NCBI GenBank assembly: GCA_965224065.1
Contig: CBDCYF010000005.1
Coordinates: forward strand, 3,596,491-3,660,490
Length of the DNA stretch: 64,000 nucleotides
Direction: 5' to 3'
From: Candidatus Multivoradales bacterium
GTDB taxonomy: Bacteria; Acidobacteriota; Thermoanaerobaculia; Multivoradales; JAHEKO01
Position 1 is the stretch's first letter. The number at the start of each line of letters is the position of its first letter. Of the stretch, positions 13,568 to 47,281 are shown in pieces. The notes below the pieces were generated by a model. The model had not been told where the DNA came from and searched no databases. It saw nothing but the letters and a program-made list of their open reading frames with translations. The translations under genes were made by a program, and so were the position numbers.

Positions 13568-13589
13568 CACCCAGTCGGCCGGGGGGTTG

Positions 13590-15448: not shown

Positions 15449-15457
15449 TCGGCGACC

Positions 15458-28759: not shown

Positions 28760-30597
<1,838 letters not shown>

Positions 30598-30963: not shown

Positions 30964-30993
30964 TCACTCACCTGGTCACGCTCGAGTCGATCG

Positions 30994-31050
30994 ATGGTAC
31001 AAGACGGGTACCATTTCGTGTTGAATCCACGCCCGCCGCTGTCGTAGACT
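30994..31050 (+). promoter_or_regulatory. Palindromic operator plus sigma70-like promoter of the oxidase operon (divergent from the SSS operon)
   Basis: ATGGTAC-N7-GTACCAT (30994-31014) just upstream of TTGAAT-18 bp-TAGACT (31021-31050). Confidence 0.45.
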
Positions 31051-31115
31051 CCGCCAGACCACGGAAGCGGAGGGGCCTCCCTCACCCACACAGGACCTGT
31101 TCCCGAGGAGTCGCG

Positions 31116-32912: not shown

Positions 32913-32915
32913 GCG

Positions 32916-33557: not shown

Positions 33558-33569
33558 GAGCGACCGAGC

Positions 33570-33875
33570 ATGGGTGGACACACAGCCGAAGAGATCCGGA
33601 GTGAGATGCGCCGGTATTGGGTCGTGGGCACGGCCCTGTTTCTGCTCACCGTCGTTACCGTCGCGGTGAGCTATCTGGACGTGTCGGCGGGGCTGGCGAT
33701 TTTTATCGCCCTGCTGATCGCCTGTCTCAAGGGCGGGCTGGTCGCCGCGGTCTTTATGCATCTGATCTCGGAGAAGCAGGCGATCTATTCACTCTTGCTT
33801 CTGACCTTGATCTTTTTTGTCGCGCTGATGCTCGGTCCACTGGGTGCGCGCTTGGGGTCGGTCGTCGCCGGGTAA
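33570..33875 (+). CDS. Cytochrome c oxidase subunit IV family protein
   Basis: Three TM helices, LIACLKGGLVAAVFMHL. Confidence 0.88.
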   Translation: MGGHTAEEIRSEMRRYWVVGTALFLLTVVTVAVSYLDVSAGLAIFIALLIACLKGGLVAAVFMHLISEKQAIYSLLLLTLIFFVALMLGPLGARLGSVVAG

Positions 33876-33882
33876 CCTCGAG

Positions 33883-34086
33883 ATGTCGCTGCGCGCCTTC
33901 CATCTCTTTTTTGTCGCCGTGTCGATCGTCATGTGCGGCCTGGTAGCGGCGTGGGGACTGCACGACTACCGGCATCACGCCGCCGGCGGCAGCCTGGGCC
34001 TGGCGGTCCTCTGCGCCGTGCTGGGCCTTGGATTGGTGTACTACTGGCTCCGCGTCTATCGCAAGTTTCAGGAGCTCGGCCGTTGA
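33883..34086 (+). CDS. Small two-TM protein in the oxidase operon
   Basis: MSLRAFHLFFV...YYWLRVYRKF, 67 aa, inside the operon. Confidence 0.7.
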   Translation: MSLRAFHLFFVAVSIVMCGLVAAWGLHDYRHHAAGGSLGLAVLCAVLGLGLVYYWLRVYRKFQELGR

Positions 34087-34349
34087 GGGTTCGCTCGGCG
34101 CTGGCGTTCGTTTTCACGCTCGGCCTGCTGGTCCTACCGGAGTCGGCCGACGCCTGCGCCGTCTGCTACGGAGGCGCCGATACGGCGCTCACCCAGGGGA
34201 TGAACAACGGCATTCTGGTGCTGCTCGGGGTCGTCGGGCTGGTCCAAGGTGGCCTGCTGGCTATGTTCTATACGTTTTGGCGGCGCGCTCGAGACCTCAG
34301 AGCTCGGCGTGACAGCTTTCGGGTTCTGGACGGAGGTGTGAATCGATGA
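34083..34349 (+). CDS. Small exported/membrane protein with an N-terminal CxxC motif in the oxidase operon
   Basis: TTG start overlapping the previous TGA; signal peptide ending ADA-CAVCYG; TM helix; ATGA-coupled to subunit II. Confidence 0.72.
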   Translation: MRVRSALAFVFTLGLLVLPESADACAVCYGGADTALTQGMNNGILVLLGVVGLVQGGLLAMFYTFWRRARDLRARRDSFRVLDGGVNR

Positions 34350-35254
34350 AGGACTTTCTGGCGCGTTGGATGCCGATCGATGCCTCGGAGCACGGCGCGG
34401 CGCTCGACAACATGAACGCCCTGATTCACTGGCTGATGGCCTTGCTGTTCGTCGGTTGGGGGATCTACTTCATCTATGTGCTGTTCCGCTTCCGGGCCAA
34501 GAAGAACCCGCAGGCCAGCTACACGGGATCGAAGTCCCATTTTTCGACCTGGATCGAGGGTGGTGTCATTCTGTTCGAGGCGATCCTTCTGATCGGTTTT
34601 GCGATCCCGGCCTGGGCGCGTTGGGTGACCCCCCACGAGCCCGATGACAATCCTCTGGTGGTGCGTGTCGTCGGTCAGCAGTTCGCCTGGAACATCCACT
34701 ATTCCGGGGCCGACGGGGTCTTTGGCCCGACCGACGTCCATCTGGTCAATGAGGCATCGAATCCCATCGGGCTCGACCGGAGCCATCCCACCGCGGTGGA
34801 CGACATCGTCACCATCAACCAGCTCCACCTGCCCGTCGATCGGCCGGTGACCGTGCTGCTGAGCACCAAGGACGTGATCCACAGCTTTGCGTTGCCGGTC
34901 ATGCGGGTCAAGCAGGACGCGATCCCCGGTCAGGAGATTCCGGTGCACTTCACTCCCACTGCCGCCACGCCGCCCGAGGGGCGCTTCCCGGCATGTGCGG
35001 CAGGGAAGGAGTGCTGGGAGATCGCTTGCGCCCAGCTCTGCGGGCTCGGGCACTACCGGATGCGAGGTTTTCTGACGGTCCACGAGCCGGACGGCTTCGA
35101 GGCCTGGCTGGCGGCCGAGGCGCCGGCGCCCGCACCGGCACCGGCTCAGTCCCAGCCGGCGGCGACCGAGGAGAGCGCCGCGGAAGCCCCGTCGGACGAG
35201 CACGCCGACCACGACGCACACACCGATCACTCACAGCATCGGGCCGCCGGTTAG
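34346..35254 (+). CDS. ctaC: Cytochrome c oxidase subunit II (CuA)
   Basis: Two TM helices, GQQFAWNIHY, DVIHSF, CAQLCGLGHYRM; His-rich tail. Confidence 0.93.
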   Translation: MKDFLARWMPIDASEHGAALDNMNALIHWLMALLFVGWGIYFIYVLFRFRAKKNPQASYTGSKSHFSTWIEGGVILFEAILLIGFAIPAWARWVTPHEPDDNPLVVRVVGQQFAWNIHYSGADGVFGPTDVHLVNEASNPIGLDRSHPTAVDDIVTINQLHLPVDRPVTVLLSTKDVIHSFALPVMRVKQDAIPGQEIPVHFTPTAATPPEGRFPACAAGKECWEIACAQLCGLGHYRMRGFLTVHEPDGFEAWLAAEAPAPAPAPAQSQPAATEESAAEAPSDEHADHDAHTDHSQHRAAG

Positions 35255-35301: not shown

Positions 35302-36690
35302 ATGAGGCGTTGGGCCGGCGCTGCCGTCGGAGTCCTTCTCGGGTTCGTCTGGGCGGTTTCTTGGGGGCCCCTGAGCTCCGGGTTGGTGGCTGAACCCCTC
35401 CCGGCGGCCGTCGCGCCCGCGACCTTCGAGATTGTGGACGTTGCCCCGGTGTGGTCGGGGCACCCGGTTCGCTTTGCCCTCGAGACGCACGGTGGCCGCC
35501 AGTACGTGGCGTTCTATGACGCGAAACGGCGGATGACGGTCGCCATGCGACGACTCGATTCGACCCATTGGCGGTTTCACCGCTTGCCATCGAAGCTCGG
35601 ATGGGACAGCCACAGCGATCTGGCGCTGGCGGTCGACGAACGCGGCCATATCCACATCAGCGGCAACATGCACGGGGACCCGCTGGTCTATTTTCGCTCG
35701 CGCTCTCCGCACGACATTTCGGTGTTCGAGCGTCCGGGGATGGTGGGGGATCGGGAGAAACGAGTGACCTACCCGGGTTTTCTCAACAGCCCGGACGGGC
35801 AACTCGTCTTTCACTACCGCGATGGGAGAAGCGGCGAGGGGGTGCGGATCTTCAACACCTATGACGCGGATTCGAAGACCTGGCGCCGGTTGATGTCCCA
35901 GCCGCTGTTCGACGGCGGTGGCGAAATGAGCGCTTATCTCGCCGGACCGGTTCTCGGGCCGGACGGTGCGTTTCACCTGGTCTGGATGTGGCGCGACACC
36001 CCCAGCGGCGATACCTGCCACGACATCTCCTACGCACGCAGCTCCGATCTGTCGCGCTGGCAGACCGCAGCGGGCGAGCCGCTGGAGACCCCGCTGCGGC
36101 CGGGCCACCGGAAGGCAGTCGTCGACCCGGTGCCGGCCGGGGGAGGCCTCGCCGGCGCGGCCTACGGCGTCGGCTGGGATTCCGAGGGCAGCCCGGTGGT
36201 GACCTACTCGAAGTACGACGGCGCCGGGAAGAGCCAGGCGTTCAACGCCCGCTGGGAAGACACCCGGTGGGAGGTGTACCGGACCAGCGACTGGGACCAC
36301 CGTTGGGAGCTGGGCAAGACCGGCTCCCTTGTCGAGGAGGTGGTGGCGCGCCCGGTGCGCGTGGATGCCGCGGGGCGGCTGGTCCAGCCGTTCCGGCACG
36401 TCCGCCACGGGCGCGGGATCTGGGTTCTGGACCAAAACACCCTGCGGCCGACCGAGATTCTCGATCCACCGCGAGACTTGGAGGCTGTGCGGACGGTAGA
36501 ATCCGGCTTTCCGGGAATGGAAGTGCGCGAGCTCATCCACGATCGAACCGGGAAGTTTTTTTTGCGGTGGGAGACGCTGCCGACAAACCGCGACCGGCGC
36601 CGCAAGAGACCCTACCCGCCGCCGAGCATGTTGCGGGTGTACCGGAAACCGGCCCCTGCATCCAGCGGACTCCAGGGAGCCGGCCGGTGA
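35302..36690 (+). CDS. Secreted BNR-4 repeat beta-propeller protein
   Basis: Signal peptide; QYVAFYD, WDSH, HISGNMH, TYPGF, YRDGRSGEG, HLVWMWR, HDISYARS. Confidence 0.75.
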   Translation: MRRWAGAAVGVLLGFVWAVSWGPLSSGLVAEPLPAAVAPATFEIVDVAPVWSGHPVRFALETHGGRQYVAFYDAKRRMTVAMRRLDSTHWRFHRLPSKLGWDSHSDLALAVDERGHIHISGNMHGDPLVYFRSRSPHDISVFERPGMVGDREKRVTYPGFLNSPDGQLVFHYRDGRSGEGVRIFNTYDADSKTWRRLMSQPLFDGGGEMSAYLAGPVLGPDGAFHLVWMWRDTPSGDTCHDISYARSSDLSRWQTAAGEPLETPLRPGHRKAVVDPVPAGGGLAGAAYGVGWDSEGSPVVTYSKYDGAGKSQAFNARWEDTRWEVYRTSDWDHRWELGKTGSLVEEVVARPVRVDAAGRLVQPFRHVRHGRGIWVLDQNTLRPTEILDPPRDLEAVRTVESGFPGMEVRELIHDRTGKFFLRWETLPTNRDRRRKRPYPPPSMLRVYRKPAPASSGLQGAGR

Positions 36691-38357
36691 GCCTTCCCCT
36701 TCGCGTCCGACTCACGGCAAGCGCGGTCTTTTGGGTCATTCTGACGCTGGCCGCGCCCGGCGCGCGTGCCAACGAGGCCTCGGCGGTGGATGCCCCGGAG
36801 CCCGATCCGCTGCCGGAGGACGAGGCGCTCGAGGCCAATGGCGCTCGCATCGGCAAGATCTCGATCCAGGTGAGCGATGTCTTCGACATGCGGGACCCGG
36901 ACCAGAACAAAAAGATCTTTCGGTTTGTCAACCGGTTGCACCGCAAGACGCGCGACGGGGTGATCCTCGAGGAGTTGCTCTTCGAGCCCGGGGATCCGTA
37001 CTCGAGCCGGTTGTTGGCGGAGTCCGAAAGAAGGCTGCGCGAAAAACGGTACCTCTACGACGCCGAGATCAGACCAGTCGCCTATCGAGACGGCACGGTG
37101 GACATCCACGTCGACACCCGCGACGTGTGGACCTTGAATGGGGGGGTGGCGTTCTCGCGCAGCGGCGGTGAGAACACCACGCGATTCAGCGTGTCGGACA
37201 CCAATTTTCTCGGCACCGGCAAGGAAGTGGGGATCAGCCGCAAGGAGAACGTCGACCGGGTCCGCGCCGAGGCGCACTATCGCGACTTCAACCTCTTCGG
37301 CAATCACAGTGAGATCGAGATCTCGGTGTCCGACAACAGCGACGGCGACCGCTATCTTCTGCACCTGCGGCGGCCCTTTTTCGCGCTCGACACCCGCCGC
37401 TCGAAGGGCATCACGCTGCTCACCGAGGAACGGATCGACCCGATCTTCGATCGCGGTCAGGCGATTGCCGAGTTCCAGCACAAGATCGATGTGTTCGACG
37501 GCCACTGGGGGTTTTCCAGGGGGCTGAAAAACGGCTCGGTCAAGCGGTGGAAGTTCGGCTACACATTTATCAGGGACCGTTTCTTCGCCCTGCCGGATCG
37601 TCCGTCGACGATCCCGGTGCCGCCGGATCGGACGCTCTCCTACCCCTGGGTCGATTTCGAGTTCGTCCAGGATCGATTTATCGAGACCCGCGACCTCGAC
37701 AAGATCGCGCGTACCGAGGATTTGAATCTCGGGACGCGCTTCCAGACGCGGCTCGGTTTCTCGGCGCCGGCGTTTGGCGGTGACGAGGATCTGGCGATCT
37801 TTGGCACCAACGTTTCGTCCGGGTTCCACGTCGGTACCGGCAAGCTGTTGCTTGCGGACGCAAACGCCGGTCTGCGTTGGGGCCGGGACGGCCTCGACAC
37901 GCTGGCAGCGGGGATCAACGGCCGCTTCTACTGGCGCAACGGCAAGAACAAGGTCTTCTACTCGACGCTCCAGGCCGCGGCGGTAGAGGATCTCGACCCC
38001 GAGCGGCAGCTCCTGATCGGAGGCGACAGCGGCCTCCGTGGTTACCCACTGCGTTTCGAGAGCGGCGACCGCCGGGTCCTGCTCACCCTCGAGCAGCGAT
38101 TTTTCACCGGGCGGGAGTTTTTCAAGCTCGCCACGGCCGGTGCGGCGATTTTTTTCGACGCCGGGCGCGCCTGGTTTGTCGGGCAGGACCGAGCCGACGA
38201 TTTTGGCGTCCTCAAGGACATCGGCATCGGTCTGCGGCTCAGCCCGACGCGGTCGGGCGGCAAGACCATGGTGCATCTCGACGTCGCCTTTCCGCTCGAC
38301 GGGGACGGCTCGTTCGAGAGCGTCCAGTGGCTGGTCTCGACCCACGAGACTCTATGA
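36687..38357 (+). CDS. Omp85 (BamA/TamA) family outer-membrane protein with POTRA-like domain
   Basis: Signal peptide; LLAESERRLR; beta-barrel pattern; GGDSGLRGYP, FFDAGRAW, GIGLR, HLDVAFP; GTGA overlap with the previous gene. Confidence 0.85.
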   Translation: MSLPLRVRLTASAVFWVILTLAAPGARANEASAVDAPEPDPLPEDEALEANGARIGKISIQVSDVFDMRDPDQNKKIFRFVNRLHRKTRDGVILEELLFEPGDPYSSRLLAESERRLREKRYLYDAEIRPVAYRDGTVDIHVDTRDVWTLNGGVAFSRSGGENTTRFSVSDTNFLGTGKEVGISRKENVDRVRAEAHYRDFNLFGNHSEIEISVSDNSDGDRYLLHLRRPFFALDTRRSKGITLLTEERIDPIFDRGQAIAEFQHKIDVFDGHWGFSRGLKNGSVKRWKFGYTFIRDRFFALPDRPSTIPVPPDRTLSYPWVDFEFVQDRFIETRDLDKIARTEDLNLGTRFQTRLGFSAPAFGGDEDLAIFGTNVSSGFHVGTGKLLLADANAGLRWGRDGLDTLAAGINGRFYWRNGKNKVFYSTLQAAAVEDLDPERQLLIGGDSGLRGYPLRFESGDRRVLLTLEQRFFTGREFFKLATAGAAIFFDAGRAWFVGQDRADDFGVLKDIGIGLRLSPTRSGGKTMVHLDVAFPLDGDGSFESVQWLVSTHETL

Positions 38358-38435: not shown

Positions 38436-39260
38436 ATGAAATCGAAACAGATCGCCGTCGTGGCTTGCTCGCTTCTGGCCCTGGCCGTTCCGTTGGCGGC
38501 CGACGGGGGCAAGAAGGATCTCCGCGAGGAGATCGAGGAGCTCAAAGCCGGCCAGCAGAAGATCCAAAAGGACCTGGCGGAGATCAAAAAGCTTCTCGAG
38601 GCCAGGCCGGCGCCGGCCGCTCAGGGGGCCGCGCGTCGCAGCGGAGCCAATGTCGAGAATGTGGTCTTTGACCTCGGGGACAACCCGGTCAAGGGCGAAT
38701 CCACGGCCAAGCTGACACTGGTCGAATTCTCCGACTATCAGTGACCGTTCTGCAGCCGTCACGTCCGTGAGACGTACCCGCAGATTGCCAAGGAATACAT
38801 CGACACCGGAAAGATCCGCTACGCTATGCTCGATCTGCCGCTCGAGCGCATCCACCCGTTGGCCTTCAAGGCCGCTGAGGCGACCGCTTGCGCCGCCGAT
38901 CAAGGCAAGTTCTGGGAGATGCACGACCGGCTCTTCGCCAACACCCGTAATCTCCAACAGTTGAGCCCGCACGCCGAGGCCGTCGGCCTCGACGTCGCCG
39001 CGTTCGACGAATGCATGGAGAGCAATCGTCACGCCACGGCGGTGCGCAAGGACATGGCCCAGGCCCGCAAGGCGGGCGCCACCGGCACGCCGGCCTTCCT
39101 GCTGGCCCTGACCGATCCGTCTGACCCGACCAAGGTCAAGGGGTTGACCACCTTCCGAGGAGCGCAACCGTTCAACACGTTCAAGACCCAGATCGATGGA
39201 GCGTTGCGCGATCTGGCCAAGGATGCGGCGCAGCCTGGTACGGGCTCGGCGACTCAGTAG
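38436..39260 (+). CDS. Secreted DsbA-like thioredoxin, predicted selenoprotein (U-P-F-C; in-frame TGA at 38742-38744)
   Basis: AAGGAG RBS, signal peptide, LVEFSDYQ-TGA-PFC; the same frame continues into the 38826-39260 ORF (DLPL..IHP, KFWEMHD, GATGTPAF cis-Pro loop). Confidence 0.88.
38750..38783 (+). promoter_or_regulatory. Predicted bacterial SECIS element of the DsbA-like gene
   Basis: CGTC-AC-[GTCC]-GT-ga-GACG stem-loop (38757-38774) inside an outer CTGC/GCAG stem; loop GU at +19/+20 after the UGA. Confidence 0.6.
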
Positions 39261-39290
39261 CGACGCTCTCCCAAAATCGACCTCAAAAAG

Positions 39291-39322
39291 AAAGGCCGGA
39301 GCCCGTCGGGGCTCCGGCCTTT
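39291..39322. terminator. Bidirectional intrinsic terminator between the convergent DsbA-like and M36 genes
   Basis: AAAGGCCGGAGCCC-GTCG-GGGCTCCGGCCTTT with A/T tracts on both sides. Confidence 0.9.
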
Positions 39323-39343
39323 TGGTTGTGGTCGATCAGACCG

Positions 39344-42223
39344 TCAGCAATCCGGGTCGGCCCCGTCGATGAGACCGTCGCAGTCGTTGTCGAGACCGTC
39401 CGAACACCGCGGACCTTTCTCCTTGGCGTGGGTCGGCACACAACCCTGACATGCGGGGTCGATGCCGTCACAATCGTCATCGTCGCAGTCGGTGGCCTGG
39501 TCACAGTCATTGTCGAGACTGTCCTGACAGGTCAGGTTGGGAATCTCGCTCAATGCAGGAGCGCCGCAGTCGAGCTCGCACGAGCAGCTATCTTCGCCCG
39601 CGTCGCACGACAGGTCGCCGCAGCAGAACCCCGGAACCGGGGTCGACGAGCAGGTGTTTCCCTGGCCGGTACAGCGAGAGTCGCTGCAGTCGACCATATT
39701 GCTGCCGCTGCCGGTTCCATCTCCGCTGCAACAGTAGCGATTGTTGGGGTTCCCGTTCTGCTGGCCGTTGCAATCGGACGGGCAACTGCCTGCAGTGCAG
39801 TCCTCACCCGGCTCGCAGACGCCGTTGCCGCAGATCGGCCCGGGAGCCTGACTCGGACAGTCGCTCGGACAGGCGATCGTTCCGCCGGTGCCGTCGCAGC
39901 TTTCGCCCGGATCGCAAACGCCATTGCCGCATCCGGTGGTGCACTGGGATGGCAGGTCGAACGCTTCGGTCACGGCGAGGCTGCTCGAGCTCCCGCCGTC
40001 GTCGGCACTAAAGCCCATGCCGCGCTTGGCGAATCCATCCCAAATCAGACACTCGTTGGCGCCACCGTTGTTGGCCTGGTCTGCCGCCAGGATGGCGTCG
40101 CGGGCATCCAGGAACGTCGGGTTGCACCCCTGGAGCTTGAGACCGTCCACGACGAGCTGGATGGCGACGTTGTTGCCTCCCGTTCCGTTGTAGAGATCGG
40201 CATCAAAACCCTGATCGTTGACCAGGTTCCAGTACACCTCCCACACCGCTGTGGCCCAGACCGTTCCGACGCCGTGGGGGATCGAAAGCGGATCGCCCGG
40301 CTGGCCGGCGGTCTGGATGTCGCCATAGGTCAGCGGGTTGTCGACCATATCCGTGGTGTAGGGATAGGCACGGATGCCGGCGCCCGGCGTGTTGTCAAAG
40401 ATCAGATACGAGCCGACGCCGCGAAGAGTCGTCTCCGTATCGGCCGCATCGGGGGTGAAAAAGAGCGTGCACAGGTCGCTCCAACCTTCGCCCGCTTGCT
40501 GGTCGCCACCCAGACAGTTGGTGCTGGGACCGCCGGTCAACCGGGTCGACAGGCCATGGCAATACTCGTGGGCGATCACGCCGGCGTCGAAGTCGCTGTC
40601 CCGGTTCGGCTGGGTGCTGCGAAGCGTGGCGTTGAGGCCTGCGCCCAGCGCCGCCTTGATGGTGTTTCCGTCGTTCTGGCTCACCATGACCGAGGGGATG
40701 GTCACCAGCTCGCCATCCACTCCGGGTCCCATGGCGAACGTCTCGGTACCTCCCTGGTTGTTGGCCACGATCGCCGCGATGGCGCCGGCGTTTTCTGCGT
40801 TGAGCACCTTGGTTCCGAACTCGCAGTTGCCTCGGTCGATCATTGCGATCCGGCCGGGGGTGAAACCGCTCAAAGACGAGCAGGCGTCAGCCGGGCTGGC
40901 CATCTCGACGTCCCCGGTGACTCCGGTGCCGTCCAGAAACGCTCCGAAAGAAGCCTGCGGGGCCCCGTAGATTCCCGCGGCGGTAGAAGGGGGATTGACC
41001 TCGACCTCGGCGGGAGCCCGCCAGACATACATCTGCATTCTTGGGTTGGTCGTGAACGGGCCATTGGGCTCGGGGGGAGTCGCCATATTGGCGTTGTCGG
41101 AGCTGGGTCGGATGCTCCCCGCGTTGTCCTGAGCATCGGCGTTCACCGAATCGCTGGCGAGGCCGCCGCGGCCGTAGTTGTTCTCCTGAAAATTGCCGCT
41201 GGCCTCGTCAAAGCCATACTGGTACAACAAGTCGTGCATGATGTTGTTCCAGTAGAACAAGTTGACGACCGCCGCGTCGACGTACTGGTCGGGCTCGTCG
41301 GCAAAGTTCAGCGGCACGACGGCACTGGTGAAGTCGAGCGAGCCGCCGCCGTCGGGTTGGGTCACGCCCCCGCAGGACGTATTGTTGCCGTCGCGGTCTT
41401 CCTGGGCGCAGACGTTGTTGCCGCGTGTCGTGGTGAACTCGGCACCCGCGGCCCCGTTGGTGTCGTGCCAGCCAAAGGGTGATGCAGTGCTTTCCGCGGG
41501 GTTGACTTCGATGGTTCGGCCGCCGTCGTTGGGCGACTCCTTGGGCAACGCAAAGACCTCATACTGGTCGTGGGCGACCCAGTCGTTCCGGGCCAGGATC
41601 TGCCCGTTCTCGGTGTCGACCCAGAGGTTCCACCAATGGCGGTTGTCGGCCTGGCGAATCGTCATCTCCCAAGCCAAGCGCACGTCGCCGGAATCGAGGG
41701 CATAGAAGGCCAGCTTGACCGGGATCTCGTCCTGCGACAGGCCGGCTCCGCTAAAGCGAGCCTCTCTCGCGGGCCCGCCGATGGAGGCGGTCTCAAAAAG
41801 CGTCTCCGGGATCTCCAGGCCGAGCTGCTCGGCTGCTTGCCGGATCGCGGTCTCCGCGTCGAGCCTTGGCCGGCGTGTGTTGATCTTGCCGGTGAGGTTG
41901 CCGACGAAACGGTTGCCGACGTGGAGCACGCGCCCGTCGGACGTTACGTTGACGTTGATGTGGCCATTTGCGACCTCGATGCCTTGAGAGCGCTGGCGAA
42001 AGTGAATGTGCGTGATTCCGTTGTTGCTGGACCGGTACTGGTTTTTGAGGAGTTTGTCGGCCACGTCCTCGGTCGTCAGGCCGAGGGCCGTGGCGTTGGC
42101 GTTGAGATGGCTCAAGGCGATGTCGAGGGGGGGCTGGGCCTGTGCCGTCGCCATGCCCGCGAGGGCAAGCGTCACCAAGGCCACGCTACAGCAGGTGGTG
42201 ATCTGTCGATGAAACCTCTTCAA
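39344..42223 (-). CDS. Secreted M36 (fungalysin) metallopeptidase with FTP propeptide, PA domain and Cys-rich C-terminal repeats
   Basis: Signal peptide; HIHFRQ propeptide; LFYWNNIMHD; NFQENN; NANMATP; PA domain DRGNCEF..KVLNAE; AHEYCH (HExxH); AGEGWSD; CGNGVCxxGExC and CxDxLDNDCD repeats. Confidence 0.93.
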   Translation of the reverse strand: MKRFHRQITTCCSVALVTLALAGMATAQAQPPLDIALSHLNANATALGLTTEDVADKLLKNQYRSSNNGITHIHFRQRSQGIEVANGHINVNVTSDGRVLHVGNRFVGNLTGKINTRRPRLDAETAIRQAAEQLGLEIPETLFETASIGGPAREARFSGAGLSQDEIPVKLAFYALDSGDVRLAWEMTIRQADNRHWWNLWVDTENGQILARNDWVAHDQYEVFALPKESPNDGGRTIEVNPAESTASPFGWHDTNGAAGAEFTTTRGNNVCAQEDRDGNNTSCGGVTQPDGGGSLDFTSAVVPLNFADEPDQYVDAAVVNLFYWNNIMHDLLYQYGFDEASGNFQENNYGRGGLASDSVNADAQDNAGSIRPSSDNANMATPPEPNGPFTTNPRMQMYVWRAPAEVEVNPPSTAAGIYGAPQASFGAFLDGTGVTGDVEMASPADACSSLSGFTPGRIAMIDRGNCEFGTKVLNAENAGAIAAIVANNQGGTETFAMGPGVDGELVTIPSVMVSQNDGNTIKAALGAGLNATLRSTQPNRDSDFDAGVIAHEYCHGLSTRLTGGPSTNCLGGDQQAGEGWSDLCTLFFTPDAADTETTLRGVGSYLIFDNTPGAGIRAYPYTTDMVDNPLTYGDIQTAGQPGDPLSIPHGVGTVWATAVWEVYWNLVNDQGFDADLYNGTGGNNVAIQLVVDGLKLQGCNPTFLDARDAILAADQANNGGANECLIWDGFAKRGMGFSADDGGSSSSLAVTEAFDLPSQCTTGCGNGVCDPGESCDGTGGTIACPSDCPSQAPGPICGNGVCEPGEDCTAGSCPSDCNGQQNGNPNNRYCCSGDGTGSGSNMVDCSDSRCTGQGNTCSSTPVPGFCCGDLSCDAGEDSCSCELDCGAPALSEIPNLTCQDSLDNDCDQATDCDDDDCDGIDPACQGCVPTHAKEKGPRCSDGLDNDCDGLIDGADPDC

Positions 42224-42484
42224 TCTGTCCTCCGATGTTGGTCTCCGATTACGTGGAGAAAGTGGACGGCTCCCGACCCCTCATGGGCAGGCGCCGCAGT
42301 TCCTGACCGGGTTGAGACCCCCTACCACTCGACCTGATCTGTTTCGCTTGACGAGAATGCTCCTAGACGAGGGTCGTCTTGTCAAGTCGTGAGATCGTGG
42401 ATTTTTCGGCGGATATTCTGATCAGCTCGCAAGTAATATTTGCAATCTTGCAACGCAAGGGCCCCCGCTGTAGGGTCGGCCCCC

Positions 42485-42853
42485 ATGCCGGAGCCCATCA
42501 CCCTGGACTTCGACTCCTTCTGGGGTTGGCTGGTCACCCACCCCAACTGCATCCTGCGGGCCGGTACCCCGGAGGCAGTGCTCTACGACGACGACGATCT
42601 GCATTGGCATTTCGCATCCGAGAGCCCGGAGACCCTTCTGGTCCAGGTCATGCGGGGCAAGCGATTTGTCGGTGAGCTGCTGCTGCAGCCCGAACAGGTG
42701 AGTTATGTGCAGGGCACCGAGGCCGAGCAGGAAGGCGAGTACGCCTTCGAGCTGGTGGCCGAGAACGAGAAGGGCCGATTTGCGGTCTACTTTTTTGTCC
42801 TGACCCACGGTTTCGACGAGGAGGGCACGCTCCACAAAGAGCGGGTTCACTGA
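42485..42853 (+). CDS. Hypothetical cytoplasmic protein (122 aa)
   Basis: Coding-like composition, acidic, plausible beta-rich fold; no recognised motif. Confidence 0.65.
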   Translation: MPEPITLDFDSFWGWLVTHPNCILRAGTPEAVLYDDDDLHWHFASESPETLLVQVMRGKRFVGELLLQPEQVSYVQGTEAEQEGEYAFELVAENEKGRFAVYFFVLTHGFDEEGTLHKERVH

Positions 42854-42905
42854 CGGCTCCGAGGTCGCCACGCTCGGTCCCGGCCGCTGGTACGATTCCG
42901 GTCCC

Positions 42906-45900
42906 GTGGCATCTCCCTCTTCCATCGCGAGGCTTGCCGGCTGGGCCGTGCTGGCATTGGCCTTGGGCGCGATTCTGACGGGCTGTTCCGGGGAGTCCAC
43001 CGCGGACCGGCCGCGCGCCGAAGCCCTATCCGAGGACGGCGGCTCCACGGTGGCGCTGGTCCGGCGCGAAACGGCGCGCCGGCCCCCGACGCTGGTGGAG
43101 GCCATGGCCGAGAACGTCGATCCCTCGCGGGACGGCTGGAACAGCGAAGTGCTGAGCGCGGCGGCGTCCAAGCGGCTCAAGGAAATCGGGAAGATCCTGG
43201 AGGCGCCCCCCGGCACCCCTCTGGAGGGCGTCGAGGCGTGGGTCGACGAGGAGTTTGTCGGCCGCGCGCTCCGCCCCAACGTTCTCGAGGAGGCTTACTC
43301 CGACGGCGTCTTCACCATCCGCCGCTGGCAGAAGGACCGTGCCACCGGCGAGTCGCATCGCGGAGCCAAGGGGTTCGAGCTCGCTCTCGAGACCCTACGC
43401 ATGGCACGGGCCGCCGACGGCGAGGTTCGCGTGACGCTCAAGCCGGTGGCGATCGAAGAGGGGAGCGATTCGTTCTCGACCCACGTCTTCTTCGACTCGA
43501 GCCTCAGGGAGCGCGGTAGGGGGCTGCAGCGGAACGCGCTGTGGAATGTCGAATGGGCTTATCCGGTGGGGAAGCAGCCACCGCGGTTGCGCGCGGTCGA
43601 GATCGAGCGCTACGAAGAAGTCTCGTTTGCCGGCGACGGCGGCAGGCTTTTCGACGACTGCACACAGTCGGTTCTGGGCGCAAACGAATCCTATGAAACG
43701 CAGGTGCTGCCCGGGATCAACCATTGGCTGGGCCGGGTGAGCCTGATCGCCGGCATGACCATCGTCGGCTTCCATGGTCTGGCGGTGGGCGATGTCGATG
43801 GGGACGGGCTGGAAGACCTCTATGTCTGCGACGCCGCCGGTCTTCCCAACCGTTTGTTCGTGCAGAACCCCGACGGCACCGCGAGGGACGAGTCGGCCGC
43901 GGCCGGGGTCGATTGGCTGGAAGCCAGCTCGTCGGCGCTTTTTGTGGATCTGGACGGTGACGGCGACCAAGACCTGGCCGTGGCGCTGCGGCGTGGGCTG
44001 CTGCTGCACGAGAACGACGGTCGGGGCCGCTTTACGCTTCGCGCCGATCACAAGAACCTCGTCACTCGCTCGTCGTCACTCTCGGCGGCCGACTACGACG
44101 AAGACGGCGACCTCGATCTCTATGTGTGCGGCTACGATGGCGACCCCGACAACAAGGGTCTGCCCGGGCCGGTCCCCTACAACGACGCGGAGAACGGCGG
44201 AGCCAACGTCCTGCTGGCAAACCGCGGTGGTTTTCGCTTTGAAGACGTCACGGCCGAGAGCGGTCTCGACGTCAACAACACCCGCTGGAGCTTTGCCTCG
44301 GCATGGGACGACTACGACGGCGACGGCGACCTCGATCTGTATGTCGCCAATGACTACGGGCGCAACAATCTGTACCGCAACCGTGGAGCGGGCGCCCGGC
44401 CGCGATTTGAGGACGTGGCGCCCGAGACCGGCGTTGAGGACGTCGCCTCCGGCATGTCCGCGGCCTGGGGGGACTACAACCGCGACGGCCGCCCCGACAT
44501 CTATGTGAGCAACATGTTCTCTTCTGCCGGCGGTCGGATCGCGGACAAGACCCGGTTTGCAGAGTCCGCCTCCGAGCCTACGACCCGCGATCTGCAGCGC
44601 ATGGCCAGGGGAAACACCTTGTTCGAAAACGCCGGTGGCCACTTTCGCGACGTCAGTGTCGAATCCGGCGCCACCATGGGGCGCTGGGCCTGGGGCTCCA
44701 AGTTTGCGGACCTGAACAACGACTCCTGGCCCGACGTGGTGGTGACCAACGGCTATGTGACCAATGACGACAGCGGCGACTTGTGAAGCTTTTTCTGGCG
44801 GCAGGTCGTGTCGCGCTCACCCAAGGCCGAGAAAGCGCGCCAGGCGCTGGACGAGTACATCGCGAGCTGGCGAGCGATCACTCGGCTCCTGCGGGAGGGC
44901 CTCTCGTGGAGCGGCTACGAGAGAAACTGCGCATACCTCAATTGCGGTGACGGGCGGTTTGCCGATGTCTCCGCCGCTACCGGTCTGGATTTCGACGACG
45001 ACGGGCGGGCGCTGGCGGTGGTCGACTGGGATCACGACGGCGACCTGGATCTCTGGCTCTACAATCGAACCGGCCCACGCCTGCGGCTGATGCTCAACCA
45101 GAGCCCGGCCGACGGCGACCGCTCGGTGGCCTTCCGGCTGCGTGGCACCCACGCCAACCGCGATGGCGTCGGCGCCCGTGTCGAGGTCGAGTTGGAGGGC
45201 GACCGGCGGCGGCTGGTCGAGACTCTTTACGCCGGTGACGCCTACCTCTCGCAGTCTAGTAAGTGGGTGCACTTCGGCCTCGGGGAGAGCCCCGAGATCC
45301 GCCGCGTCACCGTCGCCTGGCCGGGTGGCGACCGCGAGGCGTTTGCCGGTGTCGTCCCCGGCGGTCGCTATCTGTTGGTAGAGGGCTCGGGCCGCGCCGA
45401 GGAGACGCCACGCCGCGCGGCCGTGACCCTGGCGCCGTCGCCGCCGTCCGGCTCGGTGCCGGGTGGCGGCGTCAAAGAAAGCGCGGAAACGAGGCTGTTT
45501 CTGCCTTCGCGAGTGCCGCTGCCGAGCCTGAGCTATGAGACCGGCGGCGACACGCCGGGTGTGTCGGCTCCGGTCCACCCGGGGCCAGGGCCCGACACGC
45601 CGGCGCTACTGCTCAACTTGTGGGCCAGTTGGTGTGGTCCCTGTGTGACCGAGCTGAAGGGACTGACAGAGCGGCGGGATGAGGTCCGGGCCGCCGGTCT
45701 CGACGTCATCGCACTCACCGTCGAAGAGGTAGACGGCGACGAAGCGACCGGCGCCGCTGACGCCGCGCGCCTTCTCGACCGTATTGACTTTCCCTTTCGC
45801 AGCGGTGTCGCCACCACCGAGCTGCTGGAGAAGATCGAGCTGGTGGAAGCCGTCCTCTACGACCGCAAGTGGCCGTTGGGGGTTCCGGTCAGCTTTTTGC

Positions 45901-46817
45901 TCGACCGGCAAGGGCGCCTGGCGGCGACCTATCGCGGCCCGGTCGACCTCGATGCTCTGCTCGAAGACGTCGCCGCGCTCGACGGGTCTTCCGCCGAGTT
46001 GCACAGTCGCTCCGCTCCGATTCCCGGCCGCTGGCACGCCCGCACCGCGGATGTCGATCTTCTCTGGCTGGGCAGTCAGTTCCGCGACCTCTATCCCCGC
46101 GAGATGGAGCACTACTACGAGTTGGAGCTCGAGCGCCAGACACGGCTCGCCACGCGATCGGGGGCTCCCACCGAGCACCAGCAGAGACGGCGAGGCGTGA
46201 TGTATCTGGACCTGGCGCAAGCGGCCTTCGAGAACGGGCGTATCGAGGATTCGATGACTCAACTGCGCAAAGCGATCGAAGTCGATCCCGGCTCGACCGT
46301 GGCGCGTCTCAATCTGGCCCAACTGCTGCGCTCCGCGGGCCGGACCCCTGAAGCCGTCGATCAGTATCGCGGCGCGCTGAAGGTGAATCCCGCCGACGCC
46401 GAGGCCCACTACGGCCTGGGCACGACCTTACTGGCGGCCGGCGAGGTCGGGGTCGCCTTCGATCATCTGCGCGAGGCCGCGCGTCTGTCGCCCGAATCCC
46501 CGGCACCGCTCCACGCCATGATCTGGGTGTTGCTCAATTACTCGAACCCGGACGATCGGCGGCAGCTCGGCGAAGCGCTCGAGCTTGCGGAGCGCGGCGT
46601 GGAGATGACGGACCGGCAGGACGCGAGGATGCTCGACGCGCTGGCAGCCGCCCAGGCAGCGATGGGGGAGTACGATCTCGCCGTCGAGACCGCGGAGCAG
46701 GCGGGTACCCTGGCGCGGGCCGCCGGGGAAGCCGCGCTGTTATCGCAGATCGAGCTGCGGCTCCGGTTTTTCCGTCGCGGTCTGCCGTTCCGGGAAGGCG
46801 CCACACCACCAGCTTGA
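42906..46817 (+). CDS. Lipoprotein FG-GAP / ASPIC-UnbV / TlpA-thioredoxin / TPR protein, predicted selenoprotein (in-frame TGA at 44784-44786)
   Basis: ORFs 42906-44786 and 44808-46817 share a frame; the junction reads NGYVTNDDSGDL-TGA-SFFWRQVVSRSP; lipobox LTGC; FG-GAP repeats on both sides of the TGA; YLSQSSKWVHFGLG; NLWASWCGPC; TPRs; fdhF-like SECIS follows. Confidence 0.82.
44798..44814 (+). promoter_or_regulatory. Predicted bacterial SECIS element
   Basis: GCGGCA-[GGTCG]-TGTCGC 6-bp stem starting 12 nt after the UGA; contains GCAGGTC, as in the E. coli fdhF SECIS apical loop. Confidence 0.72.
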
Positions 46818-46858: not shown

Positions 46859-47281
46859 GTGCTCGATGTCTCGCTGCTTCCAACCGTCAACGCGGCCCTC
46901 AACGGAACCGCCGCGGTGCTGCTGGTCTGCGGCTACTTCCTGATCCGAGCCCGGCGGGTCAAGGCCCATCGCGCGGTCATGCTGTCTGCCTTTGTTTGCT
47001 CGGTCCTGTTCTTGACGTCCTATCTCTACTACCACTCGCAGGCGGGGAGCGTGCGTTTCCCCGGGACCGGGCCGGTGCGCACGCTCTACCTCACCATCCT
47101 CCTCACCCACACCGTGTTGGCTGCGGCGGTGCCGTTTCTCGCCGTCATCACGTTGGTGCGCGCGCTCCGGCGGCGGTTCGACCGGCATCGTGCCATCGCC
47201 CGCTGGACCCTGCCGATCTGGCTCTATGTCTCGGCGACCGGCGTGGTCATTTACTGGATGCTGTACCGGATGAGCTGGTAG
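46859..47281 (+). CDS. DUF420 family membrane protein
   Basis: LPTVNAALN, HRAVMLSAF, FLTSYLYYH, LTHTVLA, HRAIARWTLPIWLYVSATGVVIY. Confidence 0.9.
   Translation: MLDVSLLPTVNAALNGTAAVLLVCGYFLIRARRVKAHRAVMLSAFVCSVLFLTSYLYYHSQAGSVRFPGTGPVRTLYLTILLTHTVLAAAVPFLAVITLVRALRRRFDRHRAIARWTLPIWLYVSATGVVIYWMLYRMSW

What the first reader, a model, noticed from the sequence alone, without database searches (positions are those of the whole stretch)
38742..44814. Two unrelated UGA-containing genes share a position-identical SECIS signature (CAnGUC at +16..+21)
Seen: after TGA 38744 the sequence is ccgttctgcagccgt-CACGTC-cgtg; after TGA 44786 it is agctttttctggcgg-CAGGTC-gtg. Both place CA at +16/+17 and GUC at +19..+21 in an apical loop of a short stem, although the encoded peptides differ (HV vs QV). 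The E. coli fdhF element has CAGGUC one nucleotide further out. Two independent genes matching at the same offset argues for true recoding over two chance nonsense mutations and defines a lineage-specific SECIS consensus. Both products are exported, and they sit near other periplasmic thiol-redox modules (TlpA domain, DsbD-N-fused YyaL), suggesting an extracytoplasmic selenol/thiol redox network.
Basis: partly seen in the sequence, partly recalled or inferred. Interest (0 to 1): 0.75.

Follow-up and report, generated by a model that had tools for sequence, protein, structure and literature searches.

The report
Two selenoprotein genes, unrelated SECIS hairpins
Both in-frame TGA codons are real selenocysteine codons, but the shared CAnGUC string is a coincidence of two different RNA hairpins; the second gene appears to belong to a large, so far unlisted selenoprotein family that databases annotate as two separate genes.

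Summary
Both TGAs are best read as selenocysteine codons.

Gene 1 (38436-39260) is a known kind, a DsbA-like UxxC selenoprotein.

Gene 2 (42906-46817) is a lipoprotein with an FG-GAP propeller, an ASPIC domain, a TlpA-like domain and TPR repeats. Its motif is DL-U-SFFWRQVV. In 85 of 87 aligned homologous sites, from Planctomycetota, Verrucomicrobiota and Acidobacteriota, the codon is TGA and never TAA or TAG. The hairpin GCGRCA[GGUCG]UGYCGC follows, with compensatory changes and invariant G22/U23. One such locus carries selD, selB, selA and tRNA-Sec nearby. Public annotation splits these genes in two. A May 2026 inventory of 119 selenoprotein families does not list this family.

The "position-identical signature" does not hold. 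In gene 2, GUC lies in the loop. In gene 1, ACGUC is the 5' arm of the better-supported hairpin ACGUC[CGUGA]GACGU, so its loop GU lies 4 nt further out. Each hairpin belongs to its gene family across phyla, not to this lineage. Random TGA contexts share such a match with probability 0.10-0.17.

The parts
38436..39260 (+). Gene 1: DsbA-like (Thioredoxin_4/DSBA) selenoprotein, 274 residues, with an N-terminal signal peptide and the active site U103-P-F-C106
   Evidence: Pfam Thioredoxin_4 scores 91 bits and DSBA 66.7 bits, both above cut-off. The 120 best homologues are full-length CP[FY]C or CG[FY]C proteins. TGA-containing homologues exist in many metagenome contigs.
38742..38744 (+). Selenocysteine codon of gene 1 (UGA), aligned with the first Cys of CxxC in homologues
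   Evidence: The reading frame and DsbA similarity continue across it. Twenty-four distinct homologous sequences of the same subfamily have TGA at this position.
38758..38777 (+). SECIS hairpin of gene 1. The core stem is A20-C24 with G30-U34 (38761-38765 with 38771-38775). The pentaloop CGUGA is at 38766-38770. G17 and U18 pair with A35 and C36, leaving C19 bulged. Index 1 is the U of UGA.
   Evidence: This is the minimum-free-energy structure. Positions 20-33 are invariant in 24 distinct family members except positions 27 (2 G) and 29 (1 C). The invariant positions include wobble sites 21, 24, 30 and 33, while wobble sites outside the zone vary. The probability of pair 22-32 is at least 0.85 in 18 of 24 members. 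Covariation alone cannot prove the structure, because the core pairs never vary.
42906..46817 (+). Gene 2: a 1303-residue lipoprotein. It has lipobox LTGC at 42975-42986, FG-GAP_3 repeats, a helical insert beginning with Sec627, UnbV_ASPIC (45165-45368), a TlpA/ResA-like thioredoxin domain (45606-45953, with C910-G-P-C913 at 45633-45644) and TPR repeats (46164-46724).
   Evidence: Pfam hits. There is one continuous frame across the TGA. The conserved motif DL-x-SFFWRQVV spans the TGA. A confident model of the Cys homologue P0416 matches murine CRTAC1, ResA/TlpA and TPR structures.
44784..44786 (+). Selenocysteine codon of gene 2 (UGA), residue 627 in the motif GDL-U-SFFWRQVV
   Evidence: 85 of 87 aligned sites in 79 related genome loci plus the window are TGA, never TAA or TAG; the other two are TAC and GCC. 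All 120 best N-terminal database homologues end in '..DL'. About 100 of the 120 best C-terminal homologues start just after it.
44798..44814 (+). SECIS hairpin of gene 2: stem G15-A20 with U26-C31, pentaloop GGUCG at 44804-44808, and invariant G22 and U23 at 44805-44806. It starts 11 nt after the UGA.
   Evidence: In 82 distinct sequences 96.5% of cells are paired. Pair 18-28 occurs as GU 36, AU 29, GC 9, CG 3, UA 1 and UG 1. Pair 20-26 occurs as AU 71 and GC 8. G22 and U23 are invariant. Seven non-TGA homologues with the same or nearly the same peptide keep only 2-5 of the 6 pairs and use other Val codons.
44928..44930 (+). Cys675 in the motif YERN-C. It is a candidate partner of Sec627; this role is inferred.
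   Evidence: This Cys is present in 71 of 85 TGA forms. It is present in 3 of 3 homologues with Cys at the Sec position and in 6 of 42 other non-Sec representatives.

Best explanation
Both TGA codons are selenocysteine codons, presumably decoded by SelB and tRNA-Sec. Each is directed by its own hairpin (bacterial SECIS) in the coding sequence just downstream.

Gene 1 is a member of the known DsbA-like UxxC selenoprotein family. Its SECIS is ACGUC[CGUGA]GACGU, with the loop GU at index 26-27 (index 1 is the U of UGA).

Gene 2 belongs to a large family of CRTAC1-like lipoproteins (FG-GAP propeller, ASPIC, TlpA-like domain, TPR repeats). In this family Sec opens a helix in the motif DL-U-SFFWRQVV. 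Its SECIS is GCGRCA[GGUCG]UGYCGC, which starts 11 nt after the UGA as in E. coli fdhF and has the loop GU at index 22-23.

The shared CAnGUC at +16..+21 is a coincidence of the codon pairs His-Val and Gln-Val. The same letters form a stem arm in gene 1, and a closing pair plus loop in gene 2. What the two elements truly share is the general bacterial SECIS design: a G+C-rich stem and a 5-nt loop of the form N-G-U-N-N.

Shown here: TGA conservation, hairpin conservation, covariation for gene 2, and Sec machinery next to one homologue.

Inferred: actual Sec insertion, which hairpin SelB binds in gene 1, and the redox role of Sec627 together with Cys675 and the fused TlpA CxxC.
For: Gene 2:
- TGA occurs at 85 of 87 homologous sites, with no TAA or TAG.
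- The motif SFFWRQVV continues in frame after the TGA.
- All 120 best N-terminal homologues end in DL.
- The hairpin is 96.5% paired and has two covarying pairs. G22 and U23 are invariant.
- The hairpin is lost in 7 non-TGA homologues that keep the same or nearly the same peptide.
- Locus L069 carries tRNA-Sec, selA, selB and a selD fusion within about 10 kb of its TGA-form gene.

Gene 1:
- It has the DsbA fold, and U aligns with the first Cys of CxxC in homologues.
- 24 distinct TGA homologues are invariant at positions 20-33 apart from positions 27 and 29, including synonymous sites 21, 24, 30 and 33, while flanking wobble sites vary.
- The CGUGA-loop hairpin dominates the folding ensemble in 18 of 24 members.

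Against a common signature:
- Motif count 3 against 1.78 expected.
- Chance probability of the coincidence 0.10-0.17.
- Other UxxC DsbA subfamilies have loops at other distances.
- The covariance model of the site-2 element finds only 44784 in the window.

Both elements satisfy the published bSECIS model (PMC13188914, Fig. 2A legend, read).
Against: - No experiment shows Sec insertion here.
- The window has no selA, selB, selC or selD, and its source genome was not found, so the Sec trait of this organism is unverified.
- For gene 1, the core stem never varies, so covariation cannot separate the favoured hairpin from the alternative CAC[GUCC]GUG. The alternative would put GU at index 22-23, exactly as in gene 2. 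It is populated at 0.06 in the window sequence and 0.70 in one homologue.
- In most non-Sec homologues of gene 2 the aligned residue is E, S, D, N, A or M. It is Cys in only 3 of 45. This is atypical for a catalytic Sec.
- Neither element folds significantly better than shuffled sequence (z-scores -0.70 and +1.62).
Confidence: 0.75

Rival explanations
1. The organism's SelB recognises one lineage-specific element with GU fixed at +19/+20. Gene 1 would use the small hairpin (U)CAC[GUCC]GUG(A), so both genes present CAnGUC in the same register.
For: The alternative hairpin can form in the window sequence with 4 bp (U18-A29 to C21-G26) and the loop GUCC. Its three inner pairs are kept in 22 of 24 homologues. 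It would give gene 1 the same GU position as gene 2, one base off the fdhF position. It dominates the ensemble in one homologue, L094, at 0.70.
Against: - It is only 3 bp in 21 of 24 family members, because pair 18-29 does not form. That is below the 4-bp minimum of the bSECIS model.
- Its energy is -0.2 to -2.1 kcal/mol, against -4.0 for the other core. Its ensemble probability in the window sequence is 0.06.
- It does not explain the invariance of wobble sites 30 and 33, or the exclusive use of GAG and ACG codons.
- Two homologues (L099, L140) break A20-U27.
- Both elements are family-specific across phyla, not lineage-specific.
- The chance probability of the coincidence is 0.10-0.17.
Confidence: 0.12
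2. The TGAs are ordinary stop codons. Gene 2 would be two adjacent genes, as public annotation has it, and gene 1 would be a nonsense-mutated pseudogene.
For: NCBI and other pipelines call the two halves separately, as 'VCBS/FG-GAP repeat protein' and 'ASPIC/UnbV domain-containing protein'. A GTG lies 7 codons after the TGA.
Against: - The stop is always TGA, in 85 of 85 cases.
- The conserved peptide SFFWRQVV lies between the TGA and the supposed downstream start, and it is contiguous in non-TGA homologues.
- A hairpin with covariation sits exactly there.
- The split would cut a single fold. The model of the unsplit homologue is confident across the site, with pLDDT 95.
- In gene 1 the TGA replaces the catalytic Cys and recurs in at least 24 distinct sequences.
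Confidence: 0.02
3. UGA is read through or reassigned by a mechanism that does not use selenocysteine, for example near-cognate Trp or Cys insertion or a suppressor tRNA.
For: One JGI record translated the homologous TGA as W (P0222/L080). The aligned residue in non-Sec homologues of gene 2 is variable.
Against: - Only these two sites in 64 kb look like in-frame TGAs. The other same-frame ORF pairs separated by a TGA that I examined are ordinary adjacent genes or out-of-frame ORFs. Gene 2 itself ends in TGA (46815-46817).
- Both sites have SECIS-type hairpins that meet the published model.
- A full sel gene set lies beside a homologue.
- UxxC in a DsbA fold is a listed selenoprotein motif.
Confidence: 0.03

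Closest known systems
E. coli fdhF SECIS, and the general bacterial SECIS model of Zhang and Gladyshev as summarised in PMC13188914
   Same: Both are hairpins in the coding sequence directly after the UGA. The gene-2 element occupies index 15-31, the same span as the 17-nt minimal fdhF hairpin, and has GGUC in the loop. Both window elements have 5-nt loops with G then U at loop positions 2-3, and both meet the model's loop, stem, spacing and energy limits.
   Different: There is no bulged U in gene 2, so its loop GU is at index 22-23 rather than 23-24. In gene 1 the loop is CGUGA, with GU at 26-27 and a bulged C. SelB binding was not tested. No Rfam family matches either element.
DsbA-like selenoprotein form 1 (UxxC, PF01323), listed in Table 1 of PMC13188914
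   Same: Gene 1 has the DSBA/Thioredoxin_4 fold and the UxxC motif in place of CxxC. It has many Cys homologues and many TGA homologues.
   Different: None of substance. It falls below the cut-off of the related NCBIfam model NF041057 (111.6 against 190 bits), so it is not that DsbG-like or Rcas_1661 subfamily. Several DsbA UxxC subfamilies with different SECIS hairpins exist.
CRTAC1/ASPIC family (FG-GAP beta-propeller plus UnbV_ASPIC; murine CRTAC1 structure 9etn)
   Same: Gene 2 has FG-GAP_3 repeats and UnbV_ASPIC. The model of its Cys homologue P0416 matches 9etn with E 2e-22 and target TM-score 0.74. The window also holds an ordinary paralogue at 1785-4400 (-).
   Different: Gene 2 and its relatives carry a helical insert of about 45 residues (x-SFFWRQVV ... 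SWSGxERN) that the ordinary paralogue lacks. They also carry a fused TlpA-like domain and TPR repeats, and in this clade a Sec. No selenoprotein of this family appears in the 119-family inventory or in the literature searches.
[quoted passage not shown]
   Same: They are extracytoplasmic thioredoxin-fold reductase domains with a W-x-x-x-C/U-x-x-C active site. Gene 2 gives weak hits to NF041054 and to TlpA and ResA models, and fold matches to ResA and TlpA.
   Different: In gene 2 the TlpA-like domain keeps an ordinary CGPC. The Sec lies about 280 residues upstream, in the propeller insert. The NF041054 score of 37.7 is far below its cut-off of 300.

Membership tests
Bacterial SECIS (published consensus model, PMC13188914 Fig. 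2A) - gene 2 element | Apical loop of 3-9 nt on an upper stem of 4-16 bp | tested here: met
   The loop is 5 nt and the stem is 6 bp. 96.5% of cells are paired in 82 sequences, and two pairs covary.
Bacterial SECIS (published consensus model) - gene 2 element | G in one of the first two loop positions, usually followed by G or U | tested here: met
   The loop is G21-G22-U23-C24-G25. G22 and U23 are invariant in 82 sequences.
Bacterial SECIS (published consensus model) - gene 2 element | 16-37 nt between the UGA and the apical loop; minimum free energy at or below -7.5 kcal/mol | tested here: met
   The spacing is 17 nt (index 4-20). The 49-nt fold is -11.0 kcal/mol. The isolated 17-nt hairpin is -7.3 kcal/mol, so the energy criterion is borderline for the hairpin alone.
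Bacterial SECIS (published consensus model) - gene 1 element | Loop of 3-9 nt, stem of at least 4 bp, G in the first two loop positions, spacing 16-37 nt, energy at or below -7.5 kcal/mol | tested here: met
   The loop is CGUGA (G at position 2, then U). The core stem is 5 bp, plus 2 bp beyond a bulged C. The spacing is 21 nt and the fold is -11.9 kcal/mol. The zone is invariant in 24 homologues apart from positions 27 and 29. There is no covariation, because the core never varies.
Bacterial SECIS (functional definition) | Binds SelB and directs Sec insertion at the upstream UGA | not testable with these tools
   This needs gel shifts, read-through reporters or 75Se labelling.
E. coli fdhF-type SECIS | 17-nt hairpin starting 11 nt after the UGA, GGUC in the loop with G23/U24, and a bulged U in the 5' arm | tested here: not met
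   Gene 2 meets the start at 11 nt and has GGUC in the loop. It has no bulged U, and its GU is at 22-23. Gene 1 starts 13-16 nt after the UGA and has the loop CGUGA. So both resemble the fdhF type without being members.
Proposed lineage-specific consensus (CAnGUC in the apical loop at +16..+21) | The same nucleotides play the same structural role in both genes, and the motif marks Sec-UGAs of this lineage | tested here: not met
   The structural roles differ. Each element is conserved with its gene family in other phyla. The site-2 covariance model does not find site 1. The chance probability is 0.10-0.17. The rest of the genome was not available.
DsbA-like selenoprotein form 1 (UxxC) | DSBA or Thioredoxin_4 domain above the Pfam cut-off, with U aligned to the first Cys of CxxC | tested here: met
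DsbA-like selenoprotein form 1 (UxxC) | TGA-containing orthologues in other organisms, with a conserved downstream hairpin | tested here: met
   24 distinct sequences of the same subfamily from metagenomes.
NF041057 Rcas_1661 / DsbG-like (seleno)lipoprotein | Score above the curated NCBIfam cut-off (190 bits) | tested here: not met
   The score is 111.6 bits.
Selenoprotein (criteria used in the field) - gene 2 family | In-frame TGA conserved in homologues, with protein similarity on both sides | tested here: met
   85 of 87 sites are TGA, and the motif spans the TGA.
Selenoprotein (criteria used in the field) - gene 2 family | Homologues with Cys at the Sec position | tested here: inconclusive
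   Only 3 of 45 unsplit (non-TGA) representatives have Cys (P0416, P0426, P0460). The others have E, S, D, N, A, M, Q, G or R.
Selenoprotein (criteria used in the field) - gene 2 family | The host encodes selA, selB, selC and selD | tested here: inconclusive
   Met for one homologue's contig, L069, which carries all four within about 10 kb. They are not found in the other loci or in the window. Whole genomes could not be scanned.
Known prokaryotic selenoprotein families (119 in Table 1 of PMC13188914) | The gene 2 family is listed or matches a selenoprotein NCBIfam model | tested here: not met
   The table has no FG-GAP, ASPIC, CRTAC1 or VCBS entry. There is no family-specific NCBIfam hit. Five literature searches found nothing relevant.
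CRTAC1/ASPIC family | FG-GAP propeller plus UnbV_ASPIC domain | tested here: met
   Pfam. Fold match of homologue P0416 to 9etn.

The most novel reading that the evidence does not exclude
Gene 2 represents an undescribed and very widespread selenoprotein family. Its members are CRTAC1-like propeller lipoproteins of Planctomycetota, Verrucomicrobiota and Acidobacteriota, often present in several copies per genome, and are routinely annotated as two genes.

In this family Sec arose at a position that is not Cys in most relatives. It sits at the N-terminus of a helix. It would work with Cys675 and the always-intact CxxC of the fused TlpA-like domain as an extracytoplasmic selenol/thiol redox relay.

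Because Sec/Cys-pair searches would rarely see it, families of this kind may be systematically missed.
Probability: 0.5. Interest if true: 0.7.

Novelty: new member of a known kind. Interest (0 to 1): 0.5.

Why it matters
The claim I was given, a shared lineage-specific SECIS signature, does not hold. This is a useful caution: short sequence identities after UGA codons are weak evidence unless the structure is checked in homologues.

The by-product matters more. A large family of exported CRTAC1-like proteins appears to be selenoproteins that genome annotation splits at the Sec codon.
- All 120 best N-terminal database hits end at the same 'DL'.
- The family is absent from the most recent 119-family inventory.

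If confirmed, this would have four consequences:
- Many mis-annotated genes could be corrected (the 120 best N-terminal and about 100 best C-terminal database hits are all split; the family's full size was not counted).
- A selenoprotein would be added to the marine Planctomycetota and Verrucomicrobiota selenoproteomes.
- It would show a Sec that mostly aligns with non-Cys residues.
- It would give a very well-defined natural SECIS, with 82 variants and clear covariation, for studying SelB recognition.

Tried and rejected
- Rfam at gathering threshold on the whole window, and at E up to 10 around both sites, gave no SECIS family.
- ARAGORN found no tRNA in the window.
- A GC3-based scan for further in-frame TGAs gave only these two credible sites; the other same-frame ORF pairs I examined are adjacent genes or out-of-frame ORFs.
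- Three MAFFT alignments that mixed half-length fragments were misaligned on the FG-GAP repeats and were discarded (A5 and A7).
I modelled the Cys homologue P0416 instead.
- Model coordinates are not exposed, so the Sec-to-Cys and Sec-to-TlpA distances could not be measured.
- A look-up of the window's source contig through the YyaL-like protein found nothing, and the genome scan found no relative above 63% identity. So the organism's own fdh and selD SECIS elements could not be compared.
- A search of all fetched loci for sel genes found them only in L069.
- The third motif hit at 44435, and the hairpin look-alike at 62681-62695, have no in-frame or upstream TGA context and were dismissed as chance.
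- A strict Sec-Cys675 pairing rule was rejected, because 14 of 85 TGA forms lack that Cys.

Full report
**1. Observation.**
TGA 38742-38744 is followed by ccgttctgcagccgt-CACGTC-cgtg, and TGA 44784-44786 by agctttttctggcgg-CAGGTC-gtg. The reference statement about E. coli is also correct. The fdhF sequence TGA-CACGGCCCATCGGTTG-CAGGTC is present in 5,419 of 5,426 complete E. coli genomes under the fdhF annotation, so CAGGTC lies at +17..+22. A scan for in-frame TGAs flanked by coding-like sequence found only these two credible cases in the 64-kb window. Below, index 1 is the U of UGA.

**2. Gene 1 (38436-39260, +).**
The reading frame continues across the TGA. With C in place of U, the protein matches Pfam Thioredoxin_4 (91 bits) and DSBA (66.7 bits). 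The TGA replaces the first Cys of the active site, giving EFSDYQ-U-PFC.
- The 120 best database homologues (50-65% identical) are full-length proteins with CP[FY]C or CG[FY]C at that place.
- One of them, P0222, was translated with W. Its DNA (L080) has TGA there.
- An exact-pattern scan of metagenome contigs for F-x-D-[YF]-[QE]-TGA-P-[FY]-C returned 120 stretches.
- These fall into several UxxC DsbA subfamilies, each with its own downstream hairpin.

The DsbA-like UxxC protein is a listed selenoprotein family (Table 1 of PMC13188914). Gene 1 is therefore a new member of a known family. It is not the NF041057 subfamily, since it scores 111.6 bits against a cut-off of 190.

**3. Gene 2 (42906-46817, +).**
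One frame of 1303 codons runs through the TGA.
- Pfam finds five FG-GAP_3 repeats, UnbV_ASPIC, an AhpC-TSA/Redoxin (TlpA-like) domain with WASWCGPC, and TPR repeats.
- The N-terminus has a lipobox (LTGC).
- About 100 of the 120 best database homologues of the region around the TGA begin just after it (MS[PRQ]SP..., the V of QVVSxSP). The unsplit ones, at 39-47% identity, carry the contiguous motif DL-[N/S/A]-SFFWRQVV.
- All 120 best homologues of the upstream half end in '...DL'.
- NCBI names the halves separately, as 'VCBS/FG-GAP repeat protein' and 'ASPIC/UnbV domain-containing protein'.

At the DNA level I examined 79 loci from one-genome-per-species collections, labelled Planctomycetota, Verrucomicrobiota and Acidobacteriota plus a few oddly labelled MAGs. 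Of 87 aligned sites, 85 have TGA and none has TAA or TAG. One is TAC (L009) and one is GCC (L023). Several loci hold two or three tandem paralogues, each with its own TGA. An ordinary gene boundary would not always use TGA. Nor would it leave a conserved peptide, SFFWRQV, between the stop and the next start.

**4. The gene-2 hairpin.**
In 82 distinct sequences, index 13-17, 19, 22 and 23 are invariant. The helix 15-20 with 26-31 is formed in 96.5% of cells.
- Pair 18-28 occurs as GU 36, AU 29, GC 9, CG 3, UA 1 and UG 1.
- Pair 20-26 occurs as AU 71 and GC 8. The GC form couples the amino-acid changes Q to R and V to A.
- Both controls, shuffled partners and slid partners, fall well below the observed values.

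The loop is GGUCG, with G22 and U23 never changing. The hairpin is not forced by the protein. Seven non-TGA homologues have the same or nearly the same peptide. Six of them use GTG, GTT or GTA for the first Val and only one uses GTC. They keep 2-5 of the 6 pairs. The element starts 11 nt after the UGA and spans index 15-31, like the minimal fdhF hairpin. It has no bulged U, which is why its GU sits one base closer. It satisfies every item of the published bacterial SECIS model: loop 3-9 nt, stem at least 4 bp, G in the first two loop positions, spacing 16-37 nt, energy at or below -7.5 kcal/mol (PMC13188914, read; energies).

**5. Sec machinery.**
The window has no tRNA and no sel genes. Its own genome was not in the collections; the best relative was 63% identical, and the contig look-up failed. 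In locus L069, a Verrucomicrobiota MAG, the TGA-form gene is followed within about 10 kb by four genes:
- an oxidoreductase-SelD fusion (selD, 264.6 bits);
- selB (308.5 bits against a cut-off of 242);
- selA (473.6 bits against a cut-off of 268);
- tRNA-SeC(tca).

No other fetched locus has these genes. So at least one carrier lineage demonstrably has the Sec trait, beside the gene itself.

**6. The gene-1 hairpin, and the 'same offset' question.**
The minimum-free-energy fold of the window sequence pairs A20-C24 (ACGUC) with G30-U34 (GACGU). It leaves the loop C25-G26-U27-G28-A29 and bulges C19. The loop GU is at 26-27, four bases beyond the GU of gene 2.

In 24 distinct TGA homologues of this subfamily, index 20-33 is invariant except 27 (two G) and 29 (one C). 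The invariant positions include wobble sites 21, 24, 30 and 33. In contrast, wobble sites 6, 9, 12, 15, 18, 36, 39, 42, 45 and 48 vary freely. Cys homologues show many different residues at these places (HTKD, YAKQ, HVRD and others), whereas the TGA forms show only [HY]VRET, or once [HY]VRAT.

An alternative small hairpin, (U)CAC[GUCC]GUG(A), would put GU at 22-23 as in gene 2. I tested the two formally.
- The core pairs of the first hairpin never vary, and the three inner pairs of the second are also mostly kept. Covariation therefore cannot decide between them.
- The first is favoured by energy: -4.0 against -0.2 to -2.1 kcal/mol.
- It is favoured by ensemble probability: at least 0.85 in 18 of 24 sequences, and 0.85 against 0.06 in the window.
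- The invariant zone extends to index 33, which the small hairpin does not use.
- The small hairpin has only 3 bp in 21 of 24 members.

I put about 0.8 on the CGUGA-loop hairpin.

**7. Is the shared CAnGUC meaningful?**
- TGA-N15-CANGTC occurs 3 times in the window against 1.78 expected, and 22 of 100 shuffles reach 3. The third hit (44435) is out of frame, inside gene 2.
- Among the 1,278 TGA triplets of the window, two random downstream contexts share at least 5 of 6 bases at one common offset with probability 0.17 (+1..+39) or 0.10 (+10..+30).
- Other UxxC DsbA subfamilies carry loops GGUCC at about index 22-26, CGGGU at about 32-36, and AGGU near 40. Distance is therefore not fixed, even within one protein family.
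- A covariance model built from the 82 gene-2 elements finds 44784 at 59 bits. With filters off, it finds nothing at 38742 up to E = 10.
- Both elements are nearly identical in distant organisms, so they are properties of the gene families and not of this lineage.

The real common ground is generic: a G+C-rich stem and a 5-nt loop of the form N-G-U-N-N. From memory, not tested here, this also describes the Moorella thermoacetica SECIS whose complex with SelB has been solved.

**8. What gene 2 may do (inference).**
A profile search of 1.84 billion representative proteins returned many unsplit (non-TGA) relatives of 900-1400 residues. At the Sec column they have E 15, S 14, D 13, N 9, A 5, M 4, C 3, Q 2, G 1 and R 1. 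Sec therefore sits at a variable site inside a conserved motif, and Cys is rare there. That would hide the family from Sec/Cys-pair searches.

Two features track Sec.

| Feature | TGA forms | Forms with Cys at the Sec site | Other non-Sec representatives |
|---|---|---|---|
| Cys in ...ERN-C (Cys675 in the window) | 71 of 85 | 3 of 3 | 6 of 42 |
| Intact CxxC in the fused TlpA-like domain | 80 of 80 with enough sequence | 1 of 3 | 6 of 42 |

The window protein itself could not be submitted. I modelled the Cys homologue P0416 instead, and the model is confident (pLDDT 89, pTM 0.90).
- It places the Sec-equivalent Cys644 as the first residue of helix 644-652, directly after a strand. This is the usual setting of redox-active Cys or Sec.
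- It places Cys692 at the start of a strand.
- The model matches murine CRTAC1 (9etn, E 2e-22), ResA/TlpA and TPR structures.

My best guess, at about 0.4, is an extracytoplasmic selenol/thiol oxidoreductase. Its Sec627 would cycle with Cys675 and be recycled by the fused TlpA-like domain. The substrate is unknown.

**9. Novelty.**
- The May 2026 review that compiles 119 prokaryotic selenoprotein families has no FG-GAP, ASPIC, CRTAC1 or VCBS entry.
- The GOS and deep-Sep papers do not mention one.
- Five full-text searches pairing these names with selenoprotein or selenocysteine found nothing relevant.
- No NCBIfam selenoprotein model covers the protein, and NCBI annotates the halves separately.

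I cannot exclude a description in a paper outside the searchable library. The mechanism (SelB and SECIS) is ordinary, so I file this as a new member of a known kind.

**10. Verdict.**
- Recoding at both sites: strongly supported.
- A position-identical, lineage-specific SECIS signature: not supported, and most likely coincidence.
- Most valuable outcome: gene 2 exemplifies a large, unlisted and mis-annotated selenoprotein family with an exceptionally well-supported SECIS.

Noticed in passing
window 1785-4400 (-): A second FG-GAP_3 / UnbV_ASPIC / TPR protein of 871 residues in the same window. It has no TGA and lacks the x-SFFWRQVV...SWSGxERN insert of about 45 residues and the TlpA-like domain. 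It is an ordinary CRTAC1-like paralogue.
   Followed up: partly
window 26234-28516 (+): A YyaL-like protein with Thioredox_DsbH (DUF255) and a C-terminal DsbD_N domain. It lies about 10 kb upstream of gene 1.
   Followed up: partly
window 13587-18517, 22584-24439, 30948-35254, 46859-47281: Respiratory genes surround the two selenoprotein genes: cytochrome b, a 1019-residue multi-haem cytochrome c, CtaA, CtaB (UbiA family), COX1, COX3, COX2, and a DUF420 gene directly after gene 2. TlpA-type reductases are known to mature the CuA site of oxidases, so the neighbourhood could be meaningful. This was not tested.
   Followed up: no
window 39344-42223 (-): A 959-residue M36 fungalysin-type metallopeptidase with PA and FTP domains lies between the two selenoprotein genes on the opposite strand.
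   Followed up: no
L069 15257-20945: A Verrucomicrobiota MAG contig carries a pyridine-nucleotide-disulfide-oxidoreductase/SelD fusion, selB, selA and tRNA-SeC within about 10 kb downstream of its TGA-form FG-GAP/ASPIC gene.
   Followed up: yes
L016 (3714, 7470, 11519); L017 (4529, 10415, 14203); L008, L014, L042: Tandem arrays of two or three paralogues of the gene-2 family. Each has its own TGA and hairpin, including divergent copies (33-36% identity) whose hairpins are re-registered but still present GU in the loop.
   Followed up: partly
L080 (JGI contig Ga0537303_0315024): The public gene call reads through two TGAs, one of which is the DsbA Sec codon translated as W. It thereby fuses an upstream TlpA-like gene (FFWATWCGPC) to the DsbA-like selenoprotein. 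This is an annotation artefact, and it shows a TlpA-DsbA(U) gene pair in a relative.
   Followed up: partly
L081-L200 (metagenome contigs): There are at least four UxxC DsbA-like subfamilies with distinct SECIS hairpins: ...RVGPTL with GGGUC[GGUCC]GACCC; ...ARLEPLLQQVL with CUCCAGC[AGGU]GCUGGAG about 35 nt downstream; ...GRFATGAGRQ with GGCG[CGGGU]CGCC; and the window type.
   Followed up: partly
window 62681-62695 (+) and 29106-29118 (-): Near-exact copies of the gene-2 hairpin core (CGCCAGGUCGUGGCG and GCCAGGUCGUGGC). The copy at 62681 has no upstream TGA and is probably chance (E 0.14). The copy at 29106 (E 0.89) was not inspected.
   Followed up: partly
window 35988-38357 (+) / 36612-38345 (-): Long overlapping ORFs just upstream of gene 1 have no Pfam match on either strand. 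Which one is the real gene was not resolved.
   Followed up: no
window 44435-44458 (+): The third TGA-N15-CANGTC match in the window. This TGA is out of frame, inside gene 2, about 350 nt upstream of the Sec codon.
   Followed up: yes
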